The notes under the pieces: generated by a model | The model's input: only the letters and a program-made list of their open reading frames with translations | Databases searched by the model: none | What the model was told of the DNA's origin: nothing | In this document: positions 5,317-54,995 of the stretch, in pieces | Layout: each line of letters opens with the position of its first letter | How positions within the stretch are numbered: position 1 is the stretch's first letter | Origin: a virus | Lineage: Duplodnaviria; Heunggongvirae; Uroviricota; Caudoviricetes | Virus record (IMG/VR): IMGVR_UViG_3300000228_000007 | Direction: 5' to 3' (one strand) | Length of the DNA stretch: 64,000 nucleotides | Position numbers and translations under genes: made by a program

Positions 5317-5958
5317 ATGAAAAAAGACTTTATAGTTTTTGAATGAATTGATTGAAGCTGAAAAGATACACAAATGATGTTGTTTATTGAAAAGCTTAAA
5401 AAATTTAATAAGTATGAACAAATATTAATCACAAGAGATCCATCAAATACTACTAAATCATGAAATCAAATAGCTCAGTCACTGTTAAATGGTTGATTTA
5501 AATCACCAAATGAAACACTTGAATTATATGTTAGTGATAGAATTGAGCGTTCGTCAATATATGAAAATATAATAAAATATGCTACTATAGTAGCATCAAG
5601 ATATGATTTATCAACATATGCATATCAATGAATACAATGATTCTCTTATGATGAAGTATTTGATTTTCATCAAAAAAAAGCAATAGACTTAGAATGATTT
5701 TTATTTGAACCAAATATCACTTTTCTTTTTGATATATCTCCCGAATTAGTTATGGAAAGAATATCTTTAAGATGAGAAAAAAAAGAAGCTTTTGAAACAT
5801 TAGAGCAGTTAAGTAAGGCAAGAGATAAATATTTAGATGCTATAAAATATTTAAGTGAAAAAACTTGAAGAAAGACTATAATAATAGATGCTTCAAAATC
5901 AATAGAAGAAGTTTCTAATAGTGTATGGGATGAATTTTTAAAGATAAAGTTAAAATAA
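5317..5958 (+). CDS. tmk: thymidylate kinase
   Basis: N-terminus MKKDFIVFEGIDGSGKDTQ is the classic Tmk P-loop. All three P-loop glycines are TGA codons (5344-46, 5353-55, 5359-61). LID/DRx-like region follows. A hairpin follows the stop. Confidence 0.85.
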
Positions 5959-6065
5959 AGACTCTTGAAAAGGAGTCTTTATTATAGTAACGTAAAAATA
6001 AAACTTGATTTTACATACAAATTTTTTATTTAATAATTAAAAAATTATTTATTAAATACTAATTT

Positions 6066-6677
6066 ATGGCAGTTAGAATTATTTCATTTTTATTATGAAT
6101 AATAGTCGGAATAAGTTTTTTCATTTATGATGAGATTGTTAAGAAAAAAATGTTTATAAATGAAACAAATATTATAAATGAAAATGTTATTCAAAATCTT
6201 GAAAAAAAGAAACAAGAAAATTACACAAAACAAATAGAAGTAGAAAAGGCTTTTTTATTAAAGAGTTTATGAAATCAAACGAAACCTGTGGATAAAAAAC
6301 TTATTATATATGATAATATGTTAAGTTTTGAAAACTTATATAAATCAGTATTGTCAAATACATGATTTTTTGAAAAAAGTAAGCGTTCTGATTTTATAAT
6401 CAGTATTGAATATATAAATTTGGAAAAATTAAAAAAAGAATTATTAAAAAGTAAAATAATTTTTGGTTGAAATAATACTGATATTGTATTATGAATACCA
6501 AAGAGTATATCATGTGATATGTTTAAAATAAAATCTCCATGTTATCATTATGAAAGTAATGGTAATTCAGATATAGTATTTAATAATAATGAAGTATTTA
6601 TTATTAGAGGAAATAAGGAATATTCACAAGAAGAAGCTTTGAAAATAATAGATTGAACGAAGCCGTTAGATTTATAA
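6066..6677 (+). CDS. hypothetical membrane-anchored protein
   Basis: N-terminal hydrophobic helix (ISFLLGIIVGISFFIY). Open to TAA 6675-6677. Confidence 0.45.
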
Positions 6678-6703
6678 AAAAATATTATTTAAAAATTTTA
6701 TTT

Positions 6704-7030
6704 ATGAAACAAAGTGATTGAACTATAGAAAATAAATACATAAAAAAAATACAATACTCATTATTTTATAATTATTTTACAGTAATTATAATGGCATGAT
6801 GAAGTTTAGGATTGTCTTTCTTTTTTGATATGAATATACAAATAATGCTATTTGGTATTGCACCAATAATTTTATTTATACTTATATTTATCAAAAGAAA
6901 TTCCAATATAATAACATCGGTATGAATATATAAATATTCTGAAATATTTATGGAAATATTAAAAAGTGTCCTTATTAAAAAAAAAGATATTAACCAATTA
7001 AAAGTTTTATGGAAACAAAAGACACGTTAA
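6704..7030 (+). CDS. small hypothetical membrane protein (~108 aa)
   Basis: Two predicted TM helices. ATG 6704 to TAA 7028-7030. Confidence 0.4.
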
Positions 7031-7065
7031 AAATTTGAAAGGTTTTAACTTTCTTCGTTATTATA

Positions 7066-8283
7066 ATGTTCCTAAATTATATATTTGGGAGTTTATTTGA
7101 TCTTAAGATTATTTGATATTTTAATTCCGAAATTAAATCGTTTATTACAGACTCAGAAGTCTTAAAATTATTTTCTTTGTTGTTCTATCTATTGTATGTA
7201 ATGATATATGCAATATTTGTTACATGAATATTATATAGAATTTTTTCAGTTTGAAAATGGTTTGTATTAATACATTTAAATTCATTATTAATATTGCTTT
7301 TAGTATCAAGTTTTTTATGGATAAATTGACTGTCATTAACTTATCCCTGAAATTACTTAAAAATAATGCCATTTATCAGTATAGGTAGTTTATTATTTTT
7401 TTGAATAATAAACTGAAAACTTTCATTATTTGTTGATAATAATATTAACGATACATGATTAATAAATTCTATAAAATGAGATATCAAATATTCAAAATGA
7501 GAAGCTAAATGATTTTTTCAAAGTATAAAAGATGTTTTACAAGATAAATCAAATACGGTTGATATCAGATATAAAGATGAAAATGAAAACAATAATGTAG
7601 ATATTATGACACAACCTAATGTTTTCCAATCAAGGTTTAATAATATGGATATGTTTAGTAATGACGATAAAAAAGGTATAATAGATAATGATTATATAGA
7701 ACTTCTTTGAGATTGAGAAACCAAAGATAATATAAAATTAAAAGAGATAGATAATTTTGATATTAAACCAAAAGATATAAAAGGTCTTCTTAAAGAAAAT
7801 AGAGAAAGAATAATTAATCCAAGTTCTAACGGTGTGTATAAAGATATTGTTGAAAATCCATTTGAAAATATTAATGATTTGAATGATATTAATAATTTTT
7901 GAATTGATATTAAAGAAACTGAAAGTCCTGATATTGATACTGATTATATAGATATAAATGAAATAGAGGAAGATGATTATATAGAGGATAATTTCAATGA
8001 TGAGTATGGTAATCAATTTTCAAACACAATAAATACTGTTAATAGAGGTTTCCAGCAAGAAGAAATTTGAGAAAATGTGTTAATAAATGATGGTTGAGAT
8101 AAAAATGAAACTTGAAAATTATCTACAATGGAGATATTACAATCATTAGGATGATCTATTGAAACTATAAAGAAAAATGATGAAAATACACTGCAAAATA
8201 TAGACCAAGAAAAATATTATGTAACTTGATTTATTACAAATAGTGAACAAGCCGTATTAACTGACTTAATAAAGAAATTATAA
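7066..8283 (+). CDS. hypothetical polytopic membrane protein with acidic D/E/N-rich C-terminal region
   Basis: Continuous ORF with TGA sense. Multiple hydrophobic helices are followed by a low-complexity acidic tail. The opposite-strand track ORF 7738-8016 is judged spurious. Confidence 0.45.
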
Positions 8284-8299
8284 ATTAAAACTTTAAAAT

Positions 8300-9391
8300 A
8301 TGAAGTTGAAAATTAAAACTTTAAAATATTATATAGCTATTCGATTAATAATGGTATTAAATATATCATTGTTTTTAAGTGTTTTTGCTAATACATATTT
8401 ACCTAATCTTGACGAATATAGAGGTGTTAAAGAGTATATTATTGAGAAACCATATAAAGAGTATAAAAGTAATGTTATTCAAAATACTATCGAGAGTGAT
8501 TTTAGTCAATGAACAGAAGTACTATCTTGACAAGTTCAAGTTAAAACAGTTTTTGATTTTTATGCTGATAAAAGAGCTGAAAGAATAGAAAGTATAAAGA
8601 ATACTTTAATAGAGAGTATTAAAAATAAAGATCCTATAAAGACTTGATATGATCCTATTGATACAATGATTACAAAACTTGAATCTCCTTGAAAATATTT
8701 TGTAATCAAAACCGAGGGTGATGTTATACCTATAAATGAAGACTTAGTTTTATACCTATTTGATTATAAAATAGTTTGAAAAGATGAATTTATAGAAAAG
8801 GTAAAATCACAAATATTAAACTTAAATGCTACTGCAAAAAAAGAGAAAATGTCATTAGATGAAACAAACGAAGACTTAAAAAATATTATTAAAACACTTG
8901 ATAATTATAAAATAAAATATAAAAGAATTTCAAAATCAATAGATTGATCTTTTTATATATGAAAATGAAATTGATTAAAAGTTGAGGGGAAGGAACAATT
9001 TTTTATAAATAAAATATTTACTACACCTGAATTAAAAGAACAGATTGATAAAAATAATAATAAAATAGTGTATTTTTGGACATTTGTATCAAATGATGAA
9101 TTAAAAACTAAGTATTACAGTGAAAATAATGGTATTTGATATGATGTTTTCGTAAAAATACTTTGAGATCCTATTTTTGCCTGAAATATAAAAAATGAAC
9201 AAAAAATATACCAATCATCACTATATTCATCAAAAAAAGATATTTTCATTTATAATATTGAAAAAAATAAATACGAATATTTTATTATAATAATACTATT
9301 TGTATTTTGAAATATATTAGGAACTTATTTAACATTTAACTTTGTTAATAACTTTAAAAATAACTTTAAAAAAACTCCTGAAGAATTGTAA
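8300..9391 (+). CDS. hypothetical secreted / C-terminally anchored protein (~364 aa)
   Basis: Signal-peptide-like N-terminus (IAIRLIMVLNISLFLSVFA) and a C-terminal TM helix. Track ORF 8300-8512 is extended through TGA. Confidence 0.45.
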
Positions 9392-9417
9392 AATTAACTA
9401 TATAACTTTATAATATT

Positions 9418-9849
9418 ATGATAGAAATGTTTAAATCTTGAGATTATGGTTCAATATTACTACAAGTAATAGATTTTTTTACGAAGTTTATTGCATATAC
9501 ATATGACTATTTGTATATAATCTTTTTGAAATATGCTATATTTATAGTAGAACATTACATAATATTCTTTTCATTAAGTATTCCATTAAGTTTATTTTTT
9601 TATTATATAAATAATAAAATGACTTTTCGAGAACGTTCATTTTTTTGATATTTTTTTACTTTTTTATTTAATCCTATTACTCTAATATTATATTTTATAA
9701 TATTTTTAAATATTTTTTTTGAAAAATTTATTTATTATAAGTTATTTGGAGTTAATTATTTGCTTGATTTACCAAGAAAAAAACGTGATTATGTTTTGGA
9801 AACAAAATATAGAAAAAATTTACAATCAAGAGACATAACCTTAAATTAA
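9418..9849 (+). CDS. small hypothetical membrane protein
   Basis: ATG 9418 to TAA 9847-9849, verified codon by codon. Very hydrophobic. Confidence 0.4.
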
Positions 9850-9867
9850 CAATTAATATAATAAAAT

Positions 9868-12270
9868 ATGCCAAGTCAAAAAGTAAAAACATTCTTTGAG
9901 GAAAATAATATAGTAAAATGAGTATGAAAAGAGAATCAATATTCATTATCAGTTATTTGTAATAATCCTAACCTTTGATGAAAAGGTGTCTTTTATATTG
10001 AAGATGTTGGTTGAATATGACAAAATAAAATGCATAAATATCTTATCAATCAAGATGTAAAAATGACAGCCAAAATCTTTTTTAAAACAAATAAGGTTGA
10101 TTTTTCAAAATTTGACTGATATATGTGAATTGACATTGAAACATGAGAACCTTTTGCTGTAAATTTTATAAAACAATTACATACATTAATTGGTTGAGCT
10201 ACTGGTTCAGGAAAATCAGTTACTTTATATTTCATATTATATCAATTATTTTCAAATCCATATACTGAACTATATATTCTTGATAAAAATGATTTTTCTT
10301 TTCTTGCTTGAACTAAAAAAGTTATTTATCGTGGTTCAGCATTAGAAGTAAACGGAAAAGCATTTTTTTGATTTATACGTTATTTTTGGCTTGAACAAGA
10401 TAGAAGAAATAAGATTTTTAGAAGATACTGAGCTCGTGATTGGGCTGAATATTCAGCTAATGTAATGTGACAAGTTGAATGAGCACCAATTTTAAATTAT
10501 ATATATATCATAATGGACGAGTATCAAACATTGAGAAAAATGGTTTCTGATACTATTGGAGAAGATAAATTTGATAACGAAATGAAAAAATTACTGGATA
10601 CCGTTCGTGCGGCATGAATGTGTTTTTTCTTTGGTTCTCAAGATTATCAAAAGAAACAAATTTGAGATATGAGAGATTCTATTAGAAATAGTTTTTTTGG
10701 TAAAATGTGATATTGTGATGTATTAAATGGAAAAGAATTAAACAATATTAAGTTAAATATAGAATGAACATATTTATTTTATCATTCTTTAACAAAAAAA
10801 TTTTTAAAGATACCTTTTGTTGAAGATACAACTAATACATTAGTTGCTATGTCAAACGATCCTGCATTTAGAATTAAGGATAATGTAAATTACCTTACGA
10901 TACATGAAATGCTAAATGACCTCCTTGATGAAGCTGATTCTGATATATTTTATGATATTGAAGGGCTTGTCTCATATTTACAATTAAAACCAATGTATAT
11001 TGAAAAATTAAAAAAAACATCTGATTACCTTTCTTTTATGGTATTAATATACATATTATGACGTTGAATTCAATGATGAACTATGAATAGAACTTTTAAT
11101 ATATTTTCACAAATTAACTTTGAAAAAGAAATAGATCAACAACTTTTCGTAGCAATTGATTTTTTCAAAAAAGAAGATAAATTCTTAAAACTATTAACTG
11201 AAACTTTTGAAGCATCATGAGACGAAGAAGAGTTTATTGAAAAATTATCAGATGTATTAAATAATTATTTGAAGCATATTCTTTGAGATACTAGAATTTC
11301 TTTTACAAAATGAGATAATACACTACTTGTAAAGAAAGAATTAACACCAGAACAATCTTTATTGAAAGAAAAAGCTATATTGGAAGTTTCCTACTCTTGA
11401 GAGATAAAACCACAATCAGTAAACTCTATGTATTTTATTGATAAAAACGATAATTTTAGAAAATCATCATCTGCTGATAATTATGAGGATAAATTAAAAA
11501 ACCTTATAGTTCAAAGAATGCAAAGCCGTGAAATTAACCAATATTCGGAAAAAGTGATTCTTGATATTGGTTTTGAAGTTGAACTTTCGGAAAAGAAAGA
11601 TGGTAATTTATCTTGAAAATGAAGACTTGACTTAGATAATTTAATGAAAGCTACTATTGATAGTATAAGTAAGACTATAATAAAAGATGATAACTTAGTA
11701 TATGCTATTAAAGCAAAAATAACATACAAACCAAAATCTGATTCTATATTAACTAAAAATAATAAAGTCATAATAAAAGTATATCCATACGATAATGAAG
11801 TATTAAGTATATTTGAAAATTCTTATTCTTGAGAAAACTTTGTAAAAAGAGACGATTTTAATTTTATATTGCCTTTAGATAGTAATATTACCATACCATC
11901 ATTTAATTCAATGTATAATATTTTAGGGGGTAAAAAAGTAGCTTCTCCGAATGCTACTACTTATAAAAGAATGGTTAAAGATGCTTTTATTAAAGATAAT
12001 GGATTTTCTGAGCCTACAAAATCAAGTATGGCATTACTATGAACTATAGGAGTTTATAATGATAAAGAAAGAGATCTTGATAATATGTTAAAAGCAACAA
12101 TAGATTCATTTACATGAACCGTATATATTGATGATAAACAAATTTTAGAATTTTTTATAAAAAAGAAACATATTAATGGTAATGCTGGAACATTAGAACT
12201 AAGTTTCTTTGAAATAAACAATGATACTAAACATTTAGTTAAAAGAAAAGAATCTAATAATGAAAATTAA
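9868..12270 (+). CDS. FtsK/SpoIIIE-HerA-type P-loop ATPase fused to two tandem RusA-like Holliday-junction resolvase domains (~800 aa)
   Basis: Walker A LIGGATGSGKSVTLYFILYQL and Walker B YIIMDEYQTL resemble FtsK-like DNA translocases. The C-terminal third carries two copies of the RusA signature: GRLDLDNLMKATIDSI...DDNLV and RDLDNMLKATIDSF...DDKQI (DxDNxxKxxxD...DD). The frame is continuous through track ORFs 10849-11061, 11428-11616 and 11644-11832. Confidence 0.65.
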
Positions 12271-12305: not shown

Positions 12306-13067
12306 ATGTTTAAAGTTATATGAAATAAAATTATTTCTTCCGACTGGCATTTGTTTCATAAAAATATTTTACTATATGAATTTGAATATAGAAAGAAATA
12401 TTTGAAATGAACGATTTTAGAAAATATAAATTCTGTAGAAGAATTAGAGTTAGAATATAAAAAATATGCTGAATTAGAAAAAAACGGTTGAAATTATGAA
12501 ATAGAAAAAGCAATAGATAAAGCAACTGAAAATTTTTTATTGGATGTTATTGACGCTTTACTATCTATTGATTTATCAAAAATAGATGAATATTATAATT
12601 TAGGTGATTTTTTATTTAATCCTAATGAATTAAGATTGCAAAAAATAAAGTCTAAACCTTATAATATGCTAATTAATAACATAAATGAAATCTTAGATTT
12701 TTATCATATAAAAAAGTTTTTTTGCATTTGAAATCATGACCTACCAAAAAAAGTAAATGAAAAAAATAAAGAATTAATAAAAGAATCTGATATTTATAAA
12801 TATTTAAATTCAATATTTGATGATATTTTTGATTATAAAATAGTTTGAACTGAAATATTCTCACATATGCCTCTTTGAGTACAATATTCAAAATATACAT
12901 CTTGAAGTTATCATATGGAAATTGATAAATACCTTATTGATATAATTAAACACTCTAATCAATGAGAAGTTATAACATGTTATCATGGTCACACTCACTC
13001 AAGTGATCCTAATATAATACTCGATGGAATTAAATATATTAATTGTAGTGTTGAAAAAAACTTATAA
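12306..13067 (+). CDS. metallophosphoesterase (calcineurin-like phosphoesterase, YfcE/MJ0936-like)
   Basis: N-terminal IISSDWHLFH (DxH motif) and C-terminal GHTHS motif. Confidence 0.6.
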
Positions 13068-14726: not shown

Positions 14727-17700
14727 ATGTTGAAAAAGATAATATTATCATTCATGACAATCCTTTTGGTAACACAAGGTATTTTTGGTATTGCTAAAGC
14801 AGATGAAATAGATGAATTAAAACAAGAATGGAGAAATATATGAAATCAAATATCAACTATACAAGTTAAGTTAGATAATGATTGATCTTTGTATATGCTT
14901 CCTACATATGCTAATATAAAAAATTTATGAGGATTATTACCAGGTTGATGTATTGATGCGGATCTTTTATCAAGTTCTATTGAAGATAAAACAAATGGAG
15001 CTTATCGTATTAACTGTACCAATGAAATAACATTTAAAAATCTACTAAAATTATTACAAGTAACAACCACTCATTCAATTTATGGTAAGGAATTATCTGA
15101 TTTATATATTCCTAAATACTTTATTCTTGAACAAGAAATAAACGTTAAATCAACAAAGGTTTCTATAGATTCTCTATGAAGAATTTGGTATAATAATCCT
15201 GAAAAACAATCTATCATAAAAATTTTTGATCCAGATTTTTGAAATGATTCAGATTGAAATGAATGAACTTATGAAAAAACATTATATAAATATGATTCTT
15301 TTACTCCAAATACTTGAATTGAAGTATTTTGATTAGATTGAGATAGATTATCACCAGAAACGTTAAGAATGTGAACTTATTCAATAGAGCATTATATGAC
15401 ATCTGATGAAAGAGATAAAGCTTATGATTCAACACCATTATTTTGAAGTTCTACAAATACCTTAAAATACACATTAAATTATTTTAATGATTTAATGGAA
15501 GAAAAAGCATTTCGTGAAATTTGTAATAAAAATACATTAACAAATTTATATAAAAATGATGATTTAGCAAATACTATATCTATTAGTTTTCGTAATTTTT
15601 TAGGAGAATTAGATGATAGAGTTTCTATGATTAATAGTTGAGATTGCGGTGGAATAACATGATTAAGAACAACAAATTGAAGTGCAAATTCAGCATATAT
15701 AAAAGATAATTGATCTATAAAAATAAATGTCAGTGGAACAACGCCAGTATTGGATATACTAAGATCAACAACTAATGATTGGAATTCTACAAATAAAGCC
15801 GGATGAAAAGTATGGTTGGCTAATATTGATAAAAATCAATCAGATGGTGATTGGATTAATATTAATGTTCCTAATGTTTGAGTTATATGAAATAAAAGAA
15901 ATTATAGTTCTACTGATAATTCTTTTATTAAAGAATGGTTAAGTGGTAAAACGGTAAAATTATATTATTTAGTTAAAATGACTTCCTATTTTCCATGAAA
16001 ACCTGATTTATATAATAAATATACGTCTTGATTAGATCCCATGAATAATGATTGGTATGATTATAATAATCACTCATGAAATTTACCAAAAAACTATTTA
16101 TATGCATGACACGTTTCAAAAGTTTCAGGAGGTCGTGATTGAGTTTGAGATGCTAACTATTTCGTAATGTTATGATCTAAAAGTCTAGGTAATCCAGAAG
16201 CATCAACAATATATGCATTATCAGCACCTTGATATTCTCAAAAATGAAGTAATATTAGAGATCGATTAACAGATGATAATACTGCTGCTAAAACGCGTGC
16301 TCAGAATTTACATTTAAATATATCTCAATGATATATGGAAACTGAAAGATCTAATAAATCAAATAAATGACCTGACATTACGTTATTGAGTCCAGTTCGT
16401 AATATACCAGATCCAAAAGGTAATACTGTTCATCATTTATTTAGAAATTATGATGCAGATATGGAACTTAATCCAACGTCTAATACTAATAATTATGAAC
16501 AAAATTTAAATTATGTATTAGCTTATGTTTCAAATACTTCAACATTAGCATTTGCAAGAAATTCATTCTCTGCAGACTGATTATTAAATTGAGTGTCTAT
16601 TGCTTCAAAATTTTGGTATAATACATCACAGGATAATGAATTAATTCAAAGAAGTTGAAGCGATGTCTGTTCACCAGATATTAATAATGGAACTTTCTGG
16701 GGTTGATTATATTCATTATATGATTCTTTTAGTGCAAGTTCATGTCCTGATATTATTCAAAAACAAACAATAAGTTCAAATTATAATTGATCAAATTTTT
16801 ATCAACAATTTGAAGCTTGATTAACAAAAGAGTTATGATGATCTCAAACATCAGAGGGTTTATTGCTACAAACAATATTAAATGCTTGAGATGTAGAAGT
16901 TTATAATCAAATTTACACTAATACAAACTATGTTGTTTGATTACCCAACAAGGACCCTATAAAATGTAAAATAGATTTATATAAAATCCCTGTAAAAAGC
17001 AACTTTTGATATGATAATATTTTTACAAGTAAAAAAGATTTATCTACTGATTTGGTTTATTCTACTCCATCAAATATATTTACCAGTAGCCCTGCATCAT
17101 ATGTAGACACTACTATATTAAATTCATTAATGTGAAAAACTTATAATAAACCTGCTGAAACTGCATATAATAATTCTCAATACAAAGGTTCTTCTTGAAA
17201 TGAGCAGGAGTGGCTTTATGGTGAAAAATGAATTGTCACATATAAATGTATGAAAAACAATCAAGATGATGATAATATTGCAGTAACTGTTGTTACATCA
17301 GATAAAAAATACATAAAAACTTGAACAAAGTTTATAGAACAAGCAAATACAAATAAATTATCAACACCACTATTTACATTTAATACAGGGTCTTACTTAG
17401 GTTATAAAAGTAGTGTAATAGAAAGTGATTCAACTGTTTCATCATGAATTCCTTTTGATAATACAAATTGTTCAGCGTGATTTAATAATAATTATATAAT
17501 AAATAACACAATATGATGATTTAATTATACAAAATTAAATGATGCTACATCATGAATTCCCGCTTGAAACACAAGAATTCTTTGAACTTGTCAGGTTGGT
17601 AGATTAACAAAAAATCAATGATTATTTAGATGAGGTATTGAGGTGCAAACAGCAGCGCAAACAACTTTTTGAGCTGTAAAAACTTATGGTAAAATTGACG

Positions 17701-20700
17701 TAATTATTTATGATAAAAATCGTCCATGACAAATTATTGATCAAAAAAGTTATTATATAACTACAACAAAAAAAGATTCAATGGTTATAAGTGCTGATGG
17801 AAAAAATGCTAAATGGACTGACACTACAGCTCGTGGTTCAATAAACCATACTGATGGTATTACTTTCACTATGCAAAATAATTCAACATCTACTATAAAT
17901 TCTACCGACACAACAACATGACTTAATTTAATCATATTTCCTATACAAGCAGCAAAAAAAGCTACGTCAGGAACAATTAATAATTGAGCTTGAATTATAG
18001 GTGCATTAGCATCTTGTACGGCTAATAATGTTGATTGTTGAAATTTAAATGGTTATACAAATACAACTAACTGAATAAAAACTTATTCACAAGATGGTAC
18101 TGCTTATTTAGATTGAGTTTTAGGTGCATGAAATACCGCTTCTCCAAAACTTTCTATTGCTATAAAATCACGAAATTGAAATATTATAAATAATACAATA
18201 GTTTATAAAACAACAAGACATGCTACATCTATTGCCTATGCAATATGAATATCTTGAACACCAGCAACCGAAAAATTTTTAAGAATAATTTTACCTGCTA
18301 ATTATTCAAAATTATGACCTGGTGAAAAAATTGAAGTAACATTAAAAGCTAATACAAATGCTTTTACTGCTATAAATTGGATGAGACCAGAGCAATCACA
18401 AGAAGTAAACCAAGCAACTGCATTTACAGTAATTTGATTAGATGGTTCTACTTTTTTACCTTGAATTAGTTATGCTAATTATAAACCAATAATTATGAAA
18501 ACCATAGCAAATGCTGCTAATCCAGCCGTTTGTAATATGGAATTTCCAACTGTTTGTAGTTGAACAAAATGTATTTGGTCGAGTTGAGATGGTAGAAAAC
18601 TTTACTTATCTGAAGAAGGTATTAGAGCCATTACTGGTGTTCCAACTGCAAAGTGTTGAGATAATATAGGTTGAATAGTTCGTGAATGTATTATTAAAAC
18701 AACACCTAATATATATGCTTGAAATGTAGCCGAAACTACGCCTTATACAGTGCCTTCAAGTGTTTCTTCACCTCAAAAATGAGCATTATATAACTTTTTG
18801 GTTTGATTTGAGTATAAAATGAGGAATTATATAGCGCCAACCTGATATCAATTTGATGCAACAAGATTGTCACCAAAAGCATTCGAAGCAATATATCCAT
18901 TAAAATGAACACCTAGAGTTGTATTTAATGATATAAGTTCTATTGAAAAGAGAAAAGTCATAAAATTTACACAAAACAGAAATAAAGCAATATGACTATC
19001 TCAAGCATCTACATCATCATCTTTAAGTCACACTAATTTTGGTTGAACACCAACATTAACTGCTAAGTCAGTAGCATGATTAACTTCTTGAACTCAAACT
19101 GCCGTAAATAGTATATTTAAGTATCCGAACTTCTGTAACGGTTCAACTGCAAATTGTGATACGACTGCTACTCCATTATGAAATATAAATAATAGTATTT
19201 ATTATTGAGTAAAATGAGTATCTAATGGTAATTCACAAGCAACGGCTTTTATTGAATTTTCATGAGATTCATCTAATTTAATAAACGGATTAGATTTTAG
19301 AAATACTACATGTAAAGTTTGAACAGTAGATTTCGTTACGGCAGATCCACCACCATCACATGGTTATTGTAATGTTTTAAGTCAAGAAGTTCCTAACGGA
19401 TCTAATAATATAAACGTATGTGACCCTAATGCTTCATGAATAGCTACAAACAACTCAATATCACTTGAAGAAGATTTTATACCTTGAAATTATGTTAAGT
19501 ATATACTTCAATGCTGAAATGATGGTTGACAAGATTTTGAATGAGATTTAGAATTTAATATCTCAAATTTTTCAAACTATGCATTAAACGCTTCGTATTT
19601 AATAAGTAATGGTTGAAGTCCATCTATATCAACAACATCAAATTCAGTTAAATTAGAAGGTGTTACTATCCCTTGAAATTCAACATCAAATGTCGAATTA
19701 ACTGTAAACCTAAAAACAAGAACTCCAAGTTGTCCTGATAATTTGCCTGATATGACAACAAATGCAAAACTAACATCTGCAACTTTTCAAAGTGATTTAC
19801 CTTCAACAACAAACTCATTATCATTTAGGGAATGTAAAGTTCCAACATTAAACCTTAACTGAGTTAGAGTTACTGACTGAAATGTTAATAATGATATAAT
19901 TCAAGACAGTTATACTAGTGCTTATCCATTTGAGTTTTCTCAATGTGGAAATCAATTAAGATACGAACTAGAGTGAAACTATGAATGTTATGAACCAAAC
20001 TCTGCTAAAATAAGTGTAACATATGATGTATGAAATAAAACTGATGGAATATGATTATGAAGAGATCCTGTATCAAGTATTTTTGCTTGAAATTTATATA
20101 CAGTTGCTCCAAATATAATATGAACCACATGAGTTAATTGGAATATGTGATGATATAATCATGTGTGAAGCCCATCAGGTTCTTTTTGACCGAGTGTATC
20201 AATTAATCCAACAGCATGATGAGATTTTAGAATGACAAATTCTTCATTTACGGTTTCAAATGTTGGTTCTCCTAATACGAAGATTAAATCACCTACTGGA
20301 GCATTTACTAAAATAAATTCAACACAATGGTTATCTTCACCTATGAATATGCAAATTGGTTTAGACCCAGTAGTTTCAGGTCAAAAAATTTATGATAATT
20401 GAATATATCAAGATACAGACTTTAATACTGTAAAATTACATAAAGAAGAAATTGATGGAACATCAAAAAAAGTTATAAAAACTTGAACTGGAAATTATGA
20501 ACCTATTATATTTGAGGCAAAAGTTGATAACCCTATAAAAAACCAATCAACATATTGAATGAGCCAATTAATGTTTGATATGTCATTAAATCCAAATACA
20601 GCTTCTTACTTTGATAAGGTTGATACAAATATTCCTACTTCTTGAAGCAATATATATGTAAAATATTGAGAACCATTATGGCAAAATCAAATTTTAGCGC

Positions 20701-23700
20701 CGGGGAATTCAATAAGTTATAAATGATGATTTAATGTAATACCTAATTTAAAAACACCTAATTTAACTCCTGCAAACACTTTATATCAAGCAAACTGAAC
20801 TCCTATGTTAAAATTTGCCAATGATCAAGGTGTGGCGTGTAATTTTAATCAATGATTTACGAATTGGACAAGTGAAATAATGAAAAATCCTATAACTATA
20901 TCAAGTATAACATTTGCCGATGAAGCACCTAATTCTATAACACCTGCTACAGATGAAATATCAGGAACTCCATTTGAACAACACTTACCTTGAGATACTA
21001 TATTATTAAACATATTGTTTAATAACAATAACTCTACAAGAAACTTTAATGATACTTATGTAAAATTTACATTTGATAATACATGAAGTTGAAAAATTGA
21101 TGTTCCTGCTATGAACTTTGATTTCACAAAAATATTTACAGTTCAATGAGTAGAATCTTGAGGGTGGATTACATTAAATGATAATTCTGCAAAATGTAAA
21201 GTTACGGCTACAACATTAATGTGTCAATTGATAGATAAAATAAATTATCAATCTACAAAAACATTAAAAATACCTTTACTTATAAATATAGAAAGTAATT
21301 TCTATCAACAATTAAAAACACAACCAAATACTAAAAATTGGAAATATTGGTATCCTACTGTGATTTCAAAAATTGAATATGGAACTCCTGATTTGAACTT
21401 AATAAATAATGTTGTTTATTATACTTCTTGAGAAAATGAATTACCTTCTGGTTGAATAAGAGATGATATTGAAACAGATGACTTCAATAATCCAATAAAC
21501 AAAACTCTTCCTGCTGAACCATTAGATTGAAAATATTCTTTCTATGTAGGTATGCCATATGCATCTATTGTAACAAGCTATTATAACGCTTCCGTTTGAA
21601 ATATATCACCTTGAGATATCTTGGTTTATAAAACTAAGATATCTAATATAGGTAAAGCATCTTTAAAAAATCCATATATTTTACAAAATCTATTTCCATT
21701 AGGATTAAAGGATAATTGGGTCGATGTTGAAGTTAATAAAGTAAGATTTACACCAAGATTAAATAAAACAAATATTTGACCTGAGGTAACAATAGACTTT
21801 AAAGCATTGAATACTGATGCTAACGCTACTAATGATGTTGATGTAAAAAATATTTGAATAATAGCGTTTAAAGAATGATTAGATGTCGATAAGTTTGATG
21901 TTTCTGTTTGAAATAGAATTGATACAAAGGCTGATAAAGAATTTGTTTTAATAGACGGTTCAAATACATTAACTGACGGTTGAGATATTGAACTTACTAC
22001 TGAAATGAAAATAGTAAAATTAAAAAATGGGAAAAGACCACAAATTGATTGTACTTCTCCTACCTCATGTTTGAGAGCAAATAAAAATCCTAAATCAGAA
22101 GAAGTGAGATGAGCAATAGATTTACCATTTGTATGAACATCAGTAGATGAAAATGATACTAAAACATATAGTGTTCATTTTCCTATATTAAAATCACAAT
22201 TATTTGCTAAATCATGAAATGATTATAGATATACTGACTGAGCAAATGCTGAAATTAAAGGTATGTTAAATAATGATAATACTACGGTAACATATAGACT
22301 TGATAACTTTATATCTCAAGAGTATACAAATCACAATACTGAAAAAATAGGTAAAGCCAGAAATGTTAAATCATACGTAAGACTTCCTATGTGAGTAAAA
22401 TATGTTCCAGGTAGTGTTAAAAGAATTGATAATATAGTTGACGGTGTTAATGATCCCTTATATAATACGATAACTCCTTTAGTAACAGATCCAATAATAA
22501 CAGAATACTCTGATTATGGACTTATTAATTGGACTTCTACAAATACATTTGATAATACGTTTTTAACAAACACTGATTGGAACAAAGTTCCTGGTTCAAA
22601 TGATAATCAATTTCAATATATGAAATGAACGCCATTTAAGTTTAATTACTTTAATAGAAATTATAACTATTATAGAATTACTGATGATGGTGCATTAACA
22701 TTGGGATATGTTGTAGATCCAATAAATCCTACAAATTTGAATGAATCACAATTCTATACAGATAAAAGAAATTGAACAATGCATACTACGTGACCAGTTA
22801 GTATTACTTTTGATAGAATTAAACAATGATTAATAATACCAAACGGATTACAATATACTAACGAAAAATGAGAATATAAATTGTCAGATGGTATAAATCC
22901 TATTACTGTATGAAAAAATTCTACTATTACTTTAAATGGTAGTAATACGGTATCGTTTACACAAGGTCTTGAAGGTGTAACTTACATTTGAAGTAATGTT
23001 GATATATTTAAATCAAATATTGATTATAATACCATTGCTACACAATGGAAAAATTATGCTATAATATCACCTGCTTTCATAAAACTTGATTTAACTAAAA
23101 AATCAGAACATGGTGTTTATGAAAAAGTAGTTAGAGATTGAGCTTGAAAAGTTACGGAAATATGGTATCAATGGTTTGGTTATGTTGAATGAACTAATAA
23201 AGAGGTTAAGTTTGGTATAGTATTATATAACTGAACTAAATATAATAATATTAAATTTATTTATGGTGATATAGATAATACCTTAACTATACCTATAATA
23301 TCTTGATTATCTTCATGAAGATGAAATGTTTCTTGAACATATTCTTTTAGTTCTTATAATGGATTACAATTAAGAAATCTTTCAAATAAGGATGATATTG
23401 AATTTGATGCATCACCAGTAAATGTGTATCAAGAATTAGTATTTGATGTATGATATCCTGCAGATTGAGCAGATGCTGTGAGTGATCCAGTAGTAATGTA
23501 TCAAGAAAAGAATTCATTAGGGGCTTATGTAAAATGACCTGGTAAAGACCAAACTTCATACATATTCCAATTCAATGTAAGAATTACTACAACAGATTTA
23601 GTATGTTGAAGCGAATACTCAACATCAGATGGTTGAAATACTCTTTCTTGGGGTAAAATATCTTCTTCAAGAAGTGATAAGGATGATATAGACCAATTCT

Positions 23701-26015
23701 GTTTTTCTTCATTAAAACCTTCTATAAAAATACTGGATAATGGTTCTTATTCAAGATGAGGTTATAAAACATCATCAAATAACTGTACGGTTAATCACTT
23801 ATCTCTTATGTGATTTAATGCAAGAGCAATCTGATGGAATAAATCATTGACATCAGCATGATGTTGGCTAACTTATAATATTCAAAATGTTCAAAAAGAC
23901 CTTTCAATAAATACAATATCTCCTTATGACTTATTGGCAAAATTCAAAGAAAAAACTGATATTAGACCAGTAGATACTTCACTAACATTGAATGATAAAA
24001 AAATAACATTTACATTATCAAAAGATATAAAAGTTAAAACTTCAATGTGAACATATATAGATATAAATACTTATATTCCATGATTTCAAAATCTTGGTTT
24101 CAAAATCTTAGCAAAAAATGTATTCTTTATATATGGTAATGATTCTACTAATTGATACTTATTAAGAAGTTCAAATGAATGAGATTCTTATGATATAATA
24201 TATAAATCAGTATGAAAGAAAATAGTAAAATCATATATATCAGATATATTAAATATTATATTCTTCAATGATTGAAAATTTGTAAGAGATACAAATGGTG
24301 GTTCTTGACCTTGGTCTTCAATGATGACATTGGTTGATTACAATTGAATAAATGATATATGATTTTTAAGTAGTATGAATTGATTTGTGTTATGAAACAA
24401 TTGAATTATGTGGAAAACTCAAGATGGGGGTCAATCATTTGAAAAAATTAACTTAAAAGTTACTAATAATCTTTGAATAGGGGAAAGTATTACAAGTATT
24501 GATACGTATGGATGAAAAGATATATGGTTATCTACCTCGCTTTGAAATGTATTATATAGTTCAAATGCATGAACTCTATTTACAAAGAAAACTTCATGAG
24601 CTAGTGTTGATACTAAAATATTCTGATATGAAGATTGAGCTCAAACAGCTGTTAATGTTAGTGTAAATAATGTAGTATGAAATACTATGCAAGGCGTAGA
24701 TACTATTGATAATGGGATGTCTATTAAATTTGACAACCTTAACTTTATGCTTACCGGAAAATGATACAAATGAGTATCAACGATCATCCCCGCAAATGGT
24801 GAAATGTTGCATTATACAACGACTAATATAATTGACTTTACTCCCTATATTACAAATAACTATGTTAATGCCGATTTATATTTAGATGTTTATGTTTCAA
24901 ATATAGAAAAGACAGGAGATTTATGAGATATCGTATTTAAAGATAATGGTCAGACAACAACTTTGTGAATAAGTGATGTTAAACAGTTCAATATTGATGG
25001 TTCAAATACTTTGAAAACTTGATGGAATACCATTAAAGTTCCTGTAAGAAATTTAAATACTCCTTGAAAATGGGATCAAAGTTGAAATAACTGGGCTAAT
25101 ATAAGTCGTATTGAAATATGGAATATTCCTTCCGCAAATAAAAATATGCAAGGTTCATACTTTGTAGTAAGTAATCTACGCTTAGCACCTATTACAAATC
25201 TTTCGAATATACAAACTGTATATTTATTTCCAGATTGAAATATGTCAAAAGTAGTTCAAGATGAAATTATAAGCTTTAATGGTGTTGCTAATACAAGTAA
25301 TAGATTTTCATTATCTGCATTCAAAAAATCAGATAATACATTAGACTGATACTTAACATTAGACTTATATGTTTCTGATACATCTGCTGAATTTCCAAGA
25401 GCATTAAAGTTATGAAATTCTAATAATAATGCTATTATATGGAATAATCTTGCTACGTTTGTAAAATGATGAACAGTTAAATCTTGATGGAATACTTTAA
25501 TATTACCATTTAAAGAAACCTGAAATTCAAATATTACTTATACTAATAAGTATGATATAAATTGGTGAAGTATTGATTTATTTAAGATATTCATGTATAA
25601 TACGACTCATACAAAATATTCATTATTCGCTATTGATAATATAATATATTCATCAACTGCAAATACTTCGTTTAATTTTATAAGATTCTTTAATACAAAA
25701 GAATGAGTTGCTTATGACCAAAATAAAACATATATAACATCTGATAATATTACTTGGTGAAATAATGAAGTTCATACAGAACCATGATTATCATTCATTA
25801 ATATAGTTAGATTGAAATGACGTGAAGTTTATGGAGTTGCAAATTCGTCAAATGGTTGGATATCATATTACTCATTAGACAAATGAAAAAACTCAAAAAA
25901 ATATTCTTCTGCTTCTTGAATTAACTTTAACTCTTTTGATGCTTTTGACTATGATTATTGATTTTCAATATCAAGTAATAATAAACTTTATAGAATGGAT
26001 TTAGTCCCAAATTAG
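14727..26015 (+). CDS. giant secreted surface protein (~3,760 aa), N/S/T/G-rich with repeated C-terminal modules
   Basis: A single frame-3 ORF from ATG 14727 to TAG 26013-26015 when TGA is sense; track fragments 16386-16580 and 21219-21431 share the frame. Signal peptide MLKKIILSFMTILLVTQGIFGIAKA. No TAA/TAG was seen on manual read-through. C-terminal modules repeat the motif G(W)NT(I/L)..P... Confidence 0.7.
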
Positions 26016-29977: not shown

Positions 29978-30667
29978 TTAAATTAAAAATAACTTTTCTA
30001 TGGCTTGTTTTTCTCCAGTATTTTTTGTTAAACTACTATTTACTGATTTTTCCCAAACGCAAGTAAAATCTTCTGGTGCATTATATTCACTAACAAATAT
30101 TTTATGTCATTTCTTTTTCATATTTCTACACCATTGCCAAAATTCATCATGATTAAAATTTCAATTCAAATATTTCGTAGTTCATTTATACGGTGGATCG
30201 CAATAGATAATACTTTCTTTTGGTATTTTTAATTTTTTATAATCTATATTGTAAAACTTAATTCATTGTAATGATGGTTTTTGTTTATCTATATTTTTTA
30301 TAGCCTCTTTTGCATAATCCCTTTTTCAAATAGTATCTTTTCTATATTATCAAAAAAACTTTGCTCAATATGATAATTGAAATCAAGTAAATCAAACTAA
30401 CCAATTTGAATATTCACTTTTATTATCTTTAATTTTTATATATTTATCATGATTAACATATGGTGTTTTTTTATTCTTAAGCATCCATTTGAGTAGTGAT
30501 ATTAAATATTTATTACTATCATTTCCTATTCTATTTCAAGTTACTTTATCTATAACATTTGCTCATCAAACAAATGATTCAACATACCATTGTCAAATTA
30601 TTCTATCTTTAAGTATGATTGGTAATATTTCATTTGCAAATTTTCATTTGCTTCACATATATTTCAT
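29978..30667 (-). pseudogene. Dam/D12-family N6-adenine DNA methyltransferase interrupted by an in-frame TAA (30347-30349)
   Basis: N-terminal half MKYMGSKGKFANEILPII...FVGGANVI...NDSNKYLISLL and C-terminal half ...IIYCDPPYKG...IFVSEYNAPEDF are in the same frame, separated by one TAA. That TAA aligns with the Arg of the conserved FNVPFGRYK block. No ATG follows the TAA. Confidence 0.55.
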
Positions 30668-34932: not shown

Positions 34933-35970
34933 ATGAACTATATATGATCTAAAAAAAAATTATTAGAATTCTTAAATGAATCAATAAACCAAATAACTTG
35001 AAATAAATTTACAAGCATAGCAGATTTATTTGCTTGAACATGAATTGTAGGAAGGTTTTATAAGGGAAAAGGTAAAAAAGTTATTTCAAATGATTTACAA
35101 TATTATTCATACGTATTGAATAAATGATATATTGGAGTTAAAAGCATTTATAACTTACAGTTTGAAAAACTTTGATGATTTGATAAAGTATTTGAATCAT
35201 TAAATGATTTACCAGGAAATAAAGGCTTCATGTATAATAACTATTCACCTTGAGTCGGAGAGATAACGCATTGAAGAATGTATTTTACAAATGAAAATGC
35301 AAAAAAATGCGATGCTATAAGAAGCAAGATTGAAGAATATAAAAATAATTCTTTAATCTCTGAAGACGAATATTTCTTTTTATTAGCTTCTTTAATAGAG
35401 AGTATTGATAAAGTGTCAAATACTGCAGCTATCTATTGAGCTTACTTAAAACAATTCAAAAAATCAGCATTAAAAACTTTTATATTAGAGCCATTAATAT
35501 TTGATGAATGAAAATATGATAATGTAATATATAATAAAAACGTTAATGATTTAATTAGTGAATTAAGCCATGTAGACGTTGTTTATTTAGATCCACCATA
35601 CAATGAGCGCCAATATGCTTGAAACTATCATATACTTGAAACAATCGCTAAATATGACACACCTGAGATTACATGAAAGACATGAATGCGTAAAGAATCA
35701 AATAAATCAAAATATTGTTCAAAATCAATAGTAAAAAAAGAGTTTGAAAATTTAATAATGAATATTAATTCTGATTATATTTTTGTATCTTATAACAATG
35801 AATGATTGTTATCTATTGAAGACATGGAAGAAATATTATCAAAAAGAGGAGAATACGGTCTCTTTAAAAAAGAATATCAAAGATTTAAGTCTGATAAAGA
35901 TGTTAATAGAACTTTTTCTGATAATAAGACTTATGAATATCTCCATTACGTAAAATGTAAAAAAGACTAA
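34933..35970 (+). CDS. Dam/D12-family N6-adenine DNA methyltransferase (intact)
   Basis: MNYIGSKKKLL (YxGxK), DLFAGTG (motif I), VYLDPPYN (motif IV), and a following ...FVSYNNEG block. Confidence 0.75.
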
Positions 35971-54988: not shown

Positions 54989-54995
54989 CATAATT

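What the first reader, a model, noticed from the sequence alone, without database searches (positions are those of the whole stretch)
9868..12270. FtsK/HerA-like ATPase fused to two tandem RusA resolvase domains
One 800-aa ORF carries Walker A (GATGSGKSVT) and Walker B (IIMDEYQTL) of an FtsK/SpoIIIE-like translocase, then two consecutive copies of the RusA catalytic signature (DLDNLMKATIDSI...DDNLV and DLDNMLKATIDSF...DDKQI). RusA normally acts as a small homodimer, so a tandem fusion would form an intramolecular pseudo-dimer tethered to a DNA pump. I do not recognise this architecture. It suggests a mobile-element DNA processing or packaging enzyme.
Basis: partly seen in the sequence, partly recalled or inferred. 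Interest (0 to 1): 0.7.

Follow-up and report, generated by a model that had tools for sequence, protein, structure and literature searches.

The report
DNA pump fused to double RusA cutter
In an uncultured bacterium that reads TGA as glycine, one 800-residue protein joins an FtsK-type DNA-pumping motor to two linked copies of the RusA enzyme that cuts DNA crossovers, an apparently undescribed 'pump-and-cut' machine encoded beside five membrane proteins.

Summary
ORF 9868-12270 is continuous only if TGA is a sense codon. All 32 internal stops are TGA, and codon substitutions among orthologs show TGA=Gly (code 25). The gene is identical or differs by 1 nt in four independent assemblies, so it is not a frameshift artefact.

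Residues 1-~340 model confidently as an FtsK alpha-beta motor, with intact Walker A and B motifs and no membrane anchor. Residues ~503-641 and ~657-786 are two RusA domains, each with the full catalytic set. Together they model as one compact unit (pTM 0.81).

The family is tiny: 31 representatives among 1.84 billion proteins, none from NCBI. In its core, the motor and the tandem RusA are either fused (6 representatives) or encoded by adjacent genes (at least 3 lineages). In the best-sampled clade they stay linked to a block of five membrane-protein genes despite rearrangement.

I found no capsid, terminase, VirB4 or relaxase genes. Related contigs reach 310 kb and carry ordinary cellular genes. 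The architecture is therefore supported, but the "mobile-element packaging" reading is not.

Most likely this is a membrane-docked DNA translocase that carries its own single-chain junction resolvase. Its biological role is unresolved: segregation or repair, DNA transfer, or DNA import.

The parts
9868..12270 (+). Complete 800-aa ORF (code 25; 32 TGA=Gly codons; stop TAA): FtsK-type motor, helical domain, RusA copy 1, RusA copy 2
   Evidence: identical or 1 nt different in four assemblies; full-length orthologs at 72% and 62% identity
9868..10887 (+). FtsK-type alpha-beta ATPase motor (aa 1 to ~340), soluble, no predicted TM segment
   Evidence: AF2 model pLDDT 87.5, pTM 0.86; Foldseek top hits are the FtsK motor 2ius/6t8b (E 1e-12, ~400 columns), then TcpA 6o1w, then EccC/EssC; phmmer finds TcpA at 6e-5 and FtsK at 1e-3; no TM segment
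10192..10218 (+). Walker A / P-loop G-G-A-T-G-S-G-K-S (aa 109-117); Gly110 is encoded by TGA
   Evidence: sequence; K116 nearly invariant across 22 family members; TGA/GGN interchange at the P-loop glycines
10501..10521 (+). Walker B I-Y-I-I-M-D-E (aa 212-218); R223 downstream is a candidate arginine finger
   Evidence: D217, E218 and R223 nearly invariant in the family alignment; the arginine-finger assignment is inference
10888..11373 (+). Family-specific all-helical domain (aa ~341-502) linking the motor to RusA; no recognisable homolog and no FtsK gamma domain
   Evidence: AF2 secondary structure with pLDDT ~90; conserved in RusA-less and split members; no PDB sequence match; no Ftsk_gamma hit in Pfam
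11374..11790 (+). RusA copy 1 (aa ~503-641); catalytic DLDNLMKATID at 11629-11661 and DD at aa 607-608; has a ~12-aa insertion before the motif
   Evidence: Pfam and PHROG matches; catalytic residues invariant in 8 sequences; motif coordinates; R1 orthologs 50-54% identical
11836..12225 (+). RusA copy 2 (aa ~657-786); catalytic DLDNMLKATID at 12073-12105 and DD at aa 755-756
   Evidence: phmmer alignment to E. coli RusA 1q8r over residues 12-120; Foldseek TMt 0.71-0.80 to 1q8r/2h8c/2h8e; NCBIfam RusA match at aa 677-785; invariant catalytic residues
6066..6677 (+). Conserved partner 1: 203 aa, one N-terminal TM segment
   Evidence: orthologs in L001, L004, L021 and L023 in the same block order; TM prediction
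6653..7030 (+). Conserved partner 2: 125 aa, two TM segments; overlaps the previous gene by 25 nt
   Evidence: 48-50% identity to the L021 and L023 orthologs
7009..8283 (+). Conserved partner 3: 424 aa, four N-terminal TM segments and a long acidic tail; overlaps the previous gene by 22 nt
8300..9391 (+). Conserved partner 4: 363 aa, N-terminal signal/TM and C-terminal TM anchor; the best-conserved partner
   Evidence: 46% identity to L021 and L023; 10 clusters, all from raw metagenome assemblies and on the same contigs as the motor-RusA genes; no Pfam or PDB match
9418..9849 (+). Conserved partner 5: 143 aa, polytopic membrane protein; ends 18 nt before the fusion gene and may serve as its membrane anchor
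   Evidence: 35-37% identity to L021 and L023; TM prediction; the anchor role is inference

Best explanation
This is a genuine 800-aa protein of an uncultured bacterium, or possibly a large element, that uses genetic code 25.

Anatomy (shown). The protein has a soluble FtsK-type ATPase motor with intact Walker A and B motifs. This is followed by a family-specific helical domain and then two RusA domains in tandem. Each RusA domain keeps the full Asp/Asp/Lys/Asp catalytic set, and the pair is predicted to pack as one compact unit.

Mechanism (inferred). The two RusA domains replace the usual RusA homodimer with a single-chain pseudo-heterodimer, so every motor subunit carries a complete two-active-site junction resolvase. 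The motor assembles as a ring and pumps double-stranded DNA. It is docked at the membrane through the five co-encoded membrane proteins. When a Holliday junction or other branch point is reeled up to the ring, the tethered RusA pair makes paired nicks. That resolves or removes the branch so the DNA can be separated or passed on.

The logic resembles RuvAB-RuvC, or a packaging motor with a debranching nuclease, built from different parts on one polypeptide. The biological process served is not settled. My order of preference is chromosome segregation or repair at the membrane, then DNA transfer, then DNA import.
For: - The ORF is real and uses code 25 and is reproduced in four assemblies.
- Motor: Pfam FtsK_SpoIIIE is above its cutoff. 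The AF2 model has pLDDT 87.5, and its top Foldseek hits are FtsK motor domains (E 1e-12), followed by TcpA. K116, D217, E218 and R223 are conserved.
- RusA x2: Pfam gives 72.5 bits in two stretches. The fold matches 1q8r/2h8c with TMt up to 0.80. The equivalents of D70, D72, K76 and D91 are invariant in both copies across 8 sequences spanning 35-67% identity. The tandem models with pTM 0.81.
- The duplication is old and maintained: R1-R1 identity is 50-54%, R2-R2 is 43-47%, and R1-R2 is 27-39%.
- Fusion/fission evidence for a partnership: six 50%-identity representatives are fused. In L012 the two genes overlap by 31 nt. They are adjacent in L011/L021 and in L023.
- Membrane link: five TM-protein genes are packed against the fusion gene, with overlaps or gaps of 16-26 nt. 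They are conserved in the same order in L021 and L023 although the block lies on the other side of the motor/RusA genes.
- The 363-aa partner occurs on the same contigs as the motor-RusA genes.
Against: - No biochemical data exist. Ring assembly, translocation and junction cleavage are all inferred from homology.
- The AF2 models had to be built from database translations that carry Trp at the 32 TGA positions.
- I could not get the model coordinates, so the two-fold geometry of the RusA pair is supported only by pTM.
- The membrane partners have no recognisable homologs, so their role as a docking complex is a guess.
- The partner block is not found in the more distant loci L010, L012 and L014.
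- The peripheral family members P0014 and P0019 have no RusA in the sampled flanks.
- The replicon type is unresolved.
Confidence: 0.5

Rival explanations
1. Mobile-element enzyme. The protein is the DNA packaging or transfer motor of a large phage, plasmid or conjugative element of code-25 bacteria. RusA trims branched replication or recombination intermediates as DNA is pumped into a capsid or a recipient cell.
For: - The second-best structural and best sequence match is the pCW3 conjugation coupling protein TcpA.
- Distant tblastn hits are FtsK-like genes of large Bacillus phages and plasmids.
- The family is absent from 185,579 GTDB representative genomes for the close-relative peptide patterns and the exact RusA-2 motif searched, and from all NCBI/UniRef sources.
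- More than 70 kb of this replicon has no tRNA, rRNA or translation genes, but carries many methyltransferases, restriction-modification genes and small unknown ORFs.
- The L024 context consists of small unknown ORFs.
Against: - No capsid, portal, terminase, tail, VirB4 or relaxase match turned up in the window or related loci with Pfam or PHROGs.
- Two IMG/VR scans found nothing, and a third found only an unrelated high-GC phage RusA.
- Relatives lie on 170-310 kb contigs with ABC-transporter, DsbA, HAD, VanW, YdjM, PRPP-synthetase-like and PilB-type genes.
- The motor has no TM anchor of its own, unlike TcpA/VirD4.
Confidence: 0.2
2. DNA-import and salvage machine. The membrane complex and the FtsK-like pump reel in double-stranded DNA from a host or prey cell. 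RusA cuts branches that would jam the pump, and nearby exonuclease and nucleotide kinases turn the DNA into precursors.
For: - FtsK/SpoIIIE-type pumps are the class known to move dsDNA across membranes (established knowledge).
- The pump is linked to five membrane proteins.
- A DEDD/RNase_T exonuclease lies near the module in the window, L021 and L023.
- In the window group, a dNMP-kinase-like gene, thymidylate kinase and SSB lie just upstream.
- A giant secreted protein is adjacent in the window, L001 and L023.
- Code-25 Patescibacteria are host-dependent (PMC10746230, PMC11452946).
Against: - The case is purely contextual.
- The window's exonuclease is not detectably orthologous to those of L021 and L023 by BLASTP at E < 1e-4.
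- SSB, Tmk and a DnaQ-like exonuclease are equally ordinary replication genes.
- No known competence or secretin-like component was identified.
Confidence: 0.15
3. Anti-phage defence system of the ATPase-plus-nuclease type (as in HerA-SIR2 or HerA-DUF4297), with RusA as the effector.
For: - There are weak PADLOC matches to the FtsK/HerA-like ATPases mad8 (29.8 bits), SspH (22.4 bits) and HerA (16 bits).
- Methyltransferase or Fic genes lie near some family members, in L010 and L023.
Against: - The matches cover only the P-loop region, and no system-level match exists.
- HerA is a much poorer structural match than FtsK.
- The conserved neighbours are membrane proteins, not defence genes.
- RusA is structure-specific rather than a general effector nuclease.
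Confidence: 0.07
4. Artefact: a frameshift, a mis-assembly, or a run of pseudogene fragments read through by mistake.
For: Under the standard bacterial code the region contains 32 stops.
Against: - All internal stops are TGA, and the window as a whole behaves the same way.
- Codon substitution shows that TGA encodes Gly.
- The gene is identical in independent assemblies.
- The full architecture is conserved down to 31-41% identity in five further representatives.
Confidence: 0.01

Closest known systems
E. coli / lambdoid-prophage RusA Holliday junction resolvase (PF05866; PDB 1Q8R, 2H8C, 2H8E)
   Same: Same fold (TMt 0.71-0.80). The same catalytic Asp-x-Asp-Asn-x-x-Lys...Asp constellation is present in both copies. 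Presumably the chemistry is also the same: paired nicks across a four-way junction.
   Different: RusA is a free ~120-aa homodimer. Here two diverged copies (27-39% identical; copy 1 has a ~12-aa insertion) are joined in one chain and are fused to, or encoded next to, a motor. I found no tandem RusA in the PDB, in BFVD viral models (TMq no higher than 0.33) or in the literature searched.
FtsK / SpoIIIE dsDNA translocases (PDB 2IUS, 6T8B)
   Same: Best structural match over about 400 columns covering the alpha and beta motor domains. Walker A and B are conserved. Pfam FtsK_SpoIIIE is above its cutoff.
   Different: Only 13-17% identity. There is no N-terminal 4-TM anchor in the polypeptide and no gamma (KOPS/XerD) domain. 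A family-specific helical domain and a nuclease module take its place. FtsK activates the separate XerCD recombinase rather than carrying a nuclease.
TcpA-type type IV coupling proteins (pCW3; PDB 6O1W-6O1Z)
   Same: Best PDB match by sequence (E 6e-5) and second best by structure (E 5e-10). TcpA also has a single FtsK-like ATPase domain.
   Different: TcpA has N-terminal TM helices and works with a VirB4 ATPase, a relaxase and other T4SS parts. None of these is found here, and TcpA has no nuclease domain.
Motor-plus-nuclease DNA machines: RuvAB-RuvC resolvasome, HerA-NurA, phage T4 packaging motor with endonuclease VII, poxvirus A32 ATPase with A22 resolvase (from established knowledge)
   Same: The functional logic is the same: a ring ATPase that moves dsDNA is coupled to a structure-specific or end-processing nuclease.
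   Different: The protein families differ: RuvB is AAA+, RuvC/A22 are RNase H-fold, NurA and endo VII are unrelated to RusA. In those systems the components are separate polypeptides. Here an FtsK-type motor and RusA sit on one chain, and HerA itself is only a weak structural match (E ~1e-3).

Membership tests
RusA (PF05866) | Profile match above the curated threshold | tested here: met
   72.5 bits against a cutoff of 22.8, in two stretches; PHROG RusA-like families match aa 498-645 and 678-790; NCBIfam RusA matches aa 677-785
RusA (PF05866) | RusA alpha/beta fold | tested here: met
   Foldseek against 1q8r, 2h8c and 2h8e gives E 1e-7 to 4e-5 and TMt 0.71-0.80
RusA (PF05866) | Catalytic residues equivalent to E. 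coli D70, D72, K76 and D91 | tested here: met
   Present in both copies and invariant in 8 family sequences; residue mapping from the alignment to 1q8r
RusA (PF05866) | Small stand-alone protein acting as a homodimer | tested here: not met
   Two diverged copies sit in one chain and are fused or adjacent to a motor. They are predicted to form a compact unit (pTM 0.81). So this is a structural variant rather than a classical RusA.
RusA (PF05866) | Holliday junction cleavage activity | not testable with these tools
   Requires biochemistry
FtsK/SpoIIIE translocases | FtsK_SpoIIIE ATPase domain with Walker A and B | tested here: met
   29.6 bits against a cutoff of 24 when TGA=Gly; conserved K116, D217 and E218
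FtsK/SpoIIIE translocases | Alpha-beta motor fold | tested here: met
   Top Foldseek hits are 2ius, 6t8o and 6t8b, E 1e-12 to 1e-10, ~400 aligned columns, TMt 0.57-0.65
FtsK/SpoIIIE translocases | N-terminal polytopic membrane anchor | tested here: not met
   No hydrophobic segment in the 800-aa protein. A separate 143-aa polytopic membrane protein is encoded 18 nt upstream.
FtsK/SpoIIIE translocases | C-terminal gamma domain (KOPS reading, XerD activation) | tested here: not met
   No Ftsk_gamma match at E up to 1. The region after the motor is an all-helical domain with no PDB sequence match.
FtsK/SpoIIIE translocases | Hexameric ring that translocates dsDNA | not testable with these tools
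   Only monomer models were possible
TcpA/VirD4 type IV coupling proteins | Encoded with T4SS genes (VirB4 ATPase, relaxase, VirB6/VirB8-like proteins) and carrying N-terminal TM helices | tested here: not met
   No such Pfam or PHROG hit among about 50 window proteins; no TM segment in the protein. The feature list comes from PMC12102498.
HerA-NurA and HerA-type defence ATPases | HerA fold with an HAS-barrel, and a partner nuclease (NurA, SIR2 or DUF4297) | tested here: not met
   HerA structures match only at E ~1e-3 with rmsd 14-16 Å. PADLOC HerA models score 13-16 bits. No NurA, SIR2 or DUF4297 was found.
FtsK/HerA-type viral packaging ATPases (A32 / PRD1 P9 class) | Encoded in a virus genome with a capsid module | tested here: inconclusive
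   No structural-protein hit in the proteins scanned against PHROGs (the fusion, its neighbours and the primase), and none in IMG/VR. Divergent capsid proteins could escape sequence profiles, and only part of the replicon was seen.

The most novel reading that the evidence does not exclude
The operon encodes a previously unknown trans-membrane DNA-uptake machine of host-dependent code-25 Patescibacteria. An FtsK-like pump, docked on five novel membrane proteins, reels double-stranded DNA in from the host or prey cell. Its built-in single-chain RusA resolvase cuts forks and junctions that would stall the ring. Neighbouring exonuclease and nucleotide kinases then convert the DNA into nucleotides that these bacteria cannot make.
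Probability: 0.12. Interest if true: 0.85.

Novelty: new variant of a known kind. Interest (0 to 1): 0.62.

Why it matters
RusA is the textbook minimal Holliday junction resolvase: a small homodimer with no motor of its own that relies on separate branch-migration enzymes. This family shows two things I could not find described.

- A covalent, asymmetrically diverged tandem RusA. It is a natural single-chain resolvase whose two active sites can be mutated independently. That makes it a convenient system for studying how paired incisions are coordinated.
- Direct coupling of that tandem to an FtsK-type dsDNA pump, by fusion or by gene adjacency. This amounts to a one-polypeptide "resolvasome" built from parts different from RuvABC.

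The link to five unknown membrane proteins suggests a DNA-handling apparatus at the cell envelope of Gracilibacteria/Absconditabacteria-like organisms. How these organisms divide, exchange DNA and acquire nucleotides is largely unknown.

The case also shows how code-25 genes are missed. Under table 11 the gene vanishes, and under table 4 the motor domain falls below Pfam's threshold.

Tried and rejected
- **Table 11 reading.** It shatters the ORF. Rejected.
- **Code 4 (TGA=Trp).** It would give 34 Trp in 800 aa, drops FtsK_SpoIIIE to 11.3 bits, and is contradicted by the codon substitutions. Rejected.
- **GTDB representative genomes.** The peptide-pattern scan and the exact RusA-2 motif DNA pattern both found nothing. 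This excludes only close relatives and exact-motif carriers, not the wider family.
- **IMG/VR.** A peptide-pattern scan and a tandem-RusA pattern scan found nothing. The RusA-2 motif hit one 63%-GC phage with an ordinary single RusA, which is irrelevant.
- **JGI metagenome scan.** The tandem pattern found only two loci of the already known P0003 type.
- **PADLOC.** Only weak P-loop matches. Defence membership rejected.
- **PHROGs and Pfam on neighbours.** No structural or conjugation genes.
- **Identifying the five membrane partners.** Pfam, PHROGs, NCBIfam, per-member Pfam scans of the 10 sequences in the 363-aa family and a PDB profile search all gave nothing.
- **Middle helical domain against PDB sequences.** Nothing.
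- **Promoter scan.** At background level in this AT-rich DNA: 126 found against 120 expected.
- **Tool limits.** Iyer et al. 2004 (PMC521647) is not held.
- **Literature.** Searches for RusA with FtsK or fusion, with tandem or pseudo-dimer, and with CPR lineages found no description of this architecture.
Full report

Under the standard bacterial code, 9868-12270 is not an ORF; the longest pieces are about 70 aa. The frame starting at 9868 has 32 in-frame stops. All are TGA, and the frame ends at a TAA.

The window is 23% G+C. Stop-to-stop ORFs of at least 100 aa total 3,318 aa under table 11 and 22,973 aa if TGA is sense. The whole window is therefore recoded.

I decided between Trp (code 4) and Gly (code 25) from the sequences themselves. 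Among the window gene and two orthologs (72% and 62% identity), TGA codons align with TGA or with GGN glycine codons 8-18 times per pair and never with TGG. The two TGG codons align only with TGG. The invariant P-loop glycines alternate between TGA and GGN in different orthologs. Pfam's FtsK_SpoIIIE model passes its cutoff only with Gly: 29.6 bits against 11.3, with a cutoff of 24.

So the gene encodes a continuous 800-aa protein in code 25. It is identical or differs by 1 nt in four independent assemblies from different samples. All the quoted motifs are present.

**2. Anatomy**

*The motor.* Residues 1 to ~340 form an FtsK-type motor. An AlphaFold2 model of aa 1-488, built with 22 family sequences, has mean pLDDT 87.5 and pTM 0.86. 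Its best PDB matches are:

| Match | Foldseek E-value | Notes |
|---|---|---|
| E. coli and P. aeruginosa FtsK alpha-beta motor (2ius, 6t8b, 6t8o) | 1e-12 to 1e-10 | ~400 aligned columns |
| pCW3 coupling protein TcpA | 5e-10 | |
| Type VII EccC/EssC | ~1e-7 | |
| HerA | ~1e-3 | large rmsd |

(all). By sequence alone, TcpA (6e-5) and FtsK (1e-3) are the only PDB hits. Walker A K116, Walker B D217/E218 and R223 are nearly invariant in the family. The protein has no predicted TM segment and no FtsK gamma domain.

*The middle domain.* Residues ~341-502 are a confidently modelled all-helical domain with no detectable homolog.

*The two RusA domains.* They span residues ~503-641 and ~657-786. Support:
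- Pfam gives 72.5 bits in two stretches.
- PHROGs matches both copies.
- phmmer aligns copy 2 to E. coli RusA over residues 12-120.
- The model of aa 490-800 has pLDDT 79 and pTM 0.81, and matches RusA crystal structures with TMt up to 0.80.

In both copies the P-S-x-N-x-M-Y motif and the D-x-D-N-x-x-K...D catalytic constellation (E. coli D70, D72, K76, D91) are invariant across eight sequences spanning 35-67% identity. A pTM of 0.81 for a two-domain chain implies a defined packing of the two copies. I could not inspect the coordinates, so the RusA-like two-fold geometry remains an inference.

*Age of the duplication.* Copy-1 orthologs are 50-54% identical and copy-2 orthologs 43-47%. Copy 1 against copy 2 within one protein is only 27-39%. 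Copy 1 also has a ~12-aa insertion before the catalytic motif. The tandem is therefore an old, maintained, asymmetric pseudo-heterodimer.

**3. Relatives**

A word-indexed search of 5.8 billion proteins found only the gene itself and two orthologs with the same architecture. An exhaustive HMMER search of 1.84 billion cluster representatives with aa 1-507 found only 31 proteins at E < 1e-3.
- **Fused.** Five more representatives (30-41% identical, 934-1112 aa) carry two RusA stretches C-terminally.
- **Split.** In L012 a 611-aa motor gene overlaps a 276-aa tandem-RusA gene by 31 nt. In L011/L021 and in L023, a 518-631-aa motor gene is followed by a 272-366-aa tandem-RusA gene. The split seen in low-coverage L011 is confirmed by the 11x contig L021.
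- **No RusA nearby.** Two peripheral members at 27% identity or less (P0014, P0019) have no RusA in the sampled flanks.

Motor and tandem RusA thus behave as a Rosetta-stone pair.

I found no tandem RusA outside this family. BFVD viral models give only single-domain matches (TMq no higher than 0.33), and literature searches found nothing. No member of the family, nor of its best-conserved partner, comes from NCBI or UniRef; all come from raw JGI, ENA or Logan assemblies.

**4. Context**

In the window the fusion gene is the sixth gene of a tightly packed co-directional run from 6066 to 12270, with overlaps of 22-25 nt or gaps of 16-26 nt. A phosphoesterase gene follows 35 nt downstream. A terminator-like hairpin sits at 5954-5983, just upstream of the run.

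The five preceding genes all encode predicted membrane proteins of 203, 125, 424, 363 and 143 aa. The block is syntenic in the 72% and 62% orthologs. More tellingly, it is conserved in the same internal order in L021 and L023. There the motor and RusA genes are split, and the block lies on their other side, after a DsbA-like gene (L021 only) and an RNase_T exonuclease. Linkage that survives both rearrangement and gene fission points to a functional connection.

The partners have no recognisable homologs. The more distant loci L010, L012 and L014 share only the motor-RusA module with the window.

**5. What kind of replicon?**

*For a chromosome:* relatives lie on 170-kb and 310-kb contigs with ABC-transporter, DsbA, HAD, VanW and YdjM genes. 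Other loci carry PRPP-synthetase-like, thioredoxin, M23 peptidase and PilB-type genes. No phage structural, VirB4 or relaxase match turned up anywhere, and IMG/VR holds no relative.

*For a large mobile element:* the window plus 6.7 kb beyond it has no tRNA, rRNA or translation gene. Instead it carries TopA, UvrD, DnaG, SSB, Tmk and an exonuclease, three Dam-type methylases, a type I methylase/S fusion, an Eco57I-like gene, Thg1, a Ro60/TROVE protein and many small unknown ORFs. The exact RusA-2 motif is absent from all GTDB representatives.

I lean towards a chromosome of an unsampled lineage, at roughly 60:40, but this is unresolved. The replicon is at least about 103 kb, judged from the overlap with JGI contig TB_FS06_10DRAFT_1000015.

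**6. Mechanism**

*Shown:* an intact FtsK-type ATPase; two complete RusA active sites in one chain; fusion or adjacency of the two modules; and linkage to membrane proteins.

*Inferred:* the motor forms a ring that pumps dsDNA while docked at the membrane via the partner proteins. The tethered single-chain RusA dimer resolves or debranches junctions that arrive at the ring. This parallels RuvAB-RuvC, T4 packaging with endonuclease VII, and poxvirus A32/A22 (established knowledge), but uses different families on one polypeptide.

The process served could be clearing recombination intermediates during segregation or division, dsDNA transfer, or DNA import for nucleotide salvage. The last idea is suggested by the neighbouring exonuclease, dNMP-kinase-like gene, Tmk and SSB, and by the host-dependent lifestyle of code-25 Patescibacteria (PMC10746230, PMC11452946). 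A defence role is unlikely.

**7. Comparison and novelty**

Both domains belong to known superfamilies. Neither meets all features of the classical family. RusA is normally a free homodimer. FtsK has a 4-TM anchor and a gamma domain. TcpA has TM helices and T4SS partners. The single-chain tandem RusA, its coupling to an FtsK motor and the conserved membrane-protein block appear undescribed. I rate this a new variant of a known kind (motor-plus-nuclease DNA machines), with interest 0.62.

**Caveats**
- The restricted tools accepted only database translations with Trp at TGA positions, so the models and the exhaustive search are slightly handicapped.
- The family sample is small.
- No function has been tested.

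Noticed in passing
window 1-64000: The whole window uses genetic code 25 (TGA=Gly). ORFs of at least 100 aa sum to 3,318 aa under table 11 and 22,973 aa with TGA as sense. Public pipelines translated these genes with code 4 (Trp), which weakens domain detection.
   Followed up: yes
window 14727-26015 (+): Giant 3,762-aa ORF with an N-terminal signal-like segment and only a weak BNR/YCF48-like match. Orthologs occur in L001 (3,766 aa) and L023 (38% identity). A JGI assembly breaks at about window 25968, near the end of this gene.
   Followed up: partly
window 30347-30667 (-): A 106-aa fragment matches only the first 87 of 253 positions of the D12 adenine methyltransferase profile. It is probably a truncated remnant and lies next to topA (30810-32882).
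   Followed up: no
window 34933-35970 (+), 40158-42461 (-), 45711-46778 (-); L018 853-2127: Unusually dense DNA-modification content: two full Dam-type D12 methylases, a 767-aa N6-methylase fused to a type I specificity domain, and an Eco57I-like gene just beyond the window end.
   Followed up: no
window 54994-56523 (-) and 57094-58728 (-): A Ro60/TROVE-domain protein lies next to a DnaG-type primase. No Y RNA or any other Rfam family was detected in the window.
   Followed up: partly
window 48704-49456 (+): Thg1-like tRNA-His guanylyltransferase homolog, in a region of small unknown ORFs with no tRNA gene in the whole window.
   Followed up: no
window 5954-5983: A hairpin with an 11-bp stem overlaps the thymidylate kinase stop codon. 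It is the only terminator-like element upstream of the membrane-protein/fusion operon, and it reads as a terminator on both strands.
   Followed up: no
window 12306-13067 (+): A calcineurin-like phosphoesterase (Metallophos; phrog_547) starts 35 nt after the fusion gene. A gene of similar size (236 aa) sits in the same position in the 72% ortholog's locus but not in the 62% one; homology was not checked. It may be co-transcribed.
   Followed up: partly
L005 12113-14434; L017 12371-14659: In the 18%-GC P0003-type loci, a PilB/GspE-type (T2SSE) ATPase lies about 2.5 kb downstream of the fusion gene, where the window has the Band-7 and giant-protein genes.
   Followed up: no
L014 13199-14164; L010 6799-7725: In two distant family members, the gene immediately downstream of the fusion is a shared PRPP-synthetase-like protein (39% identity between the two loci). 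It is absent from the window's neighbourhood.
   Followed up: partly
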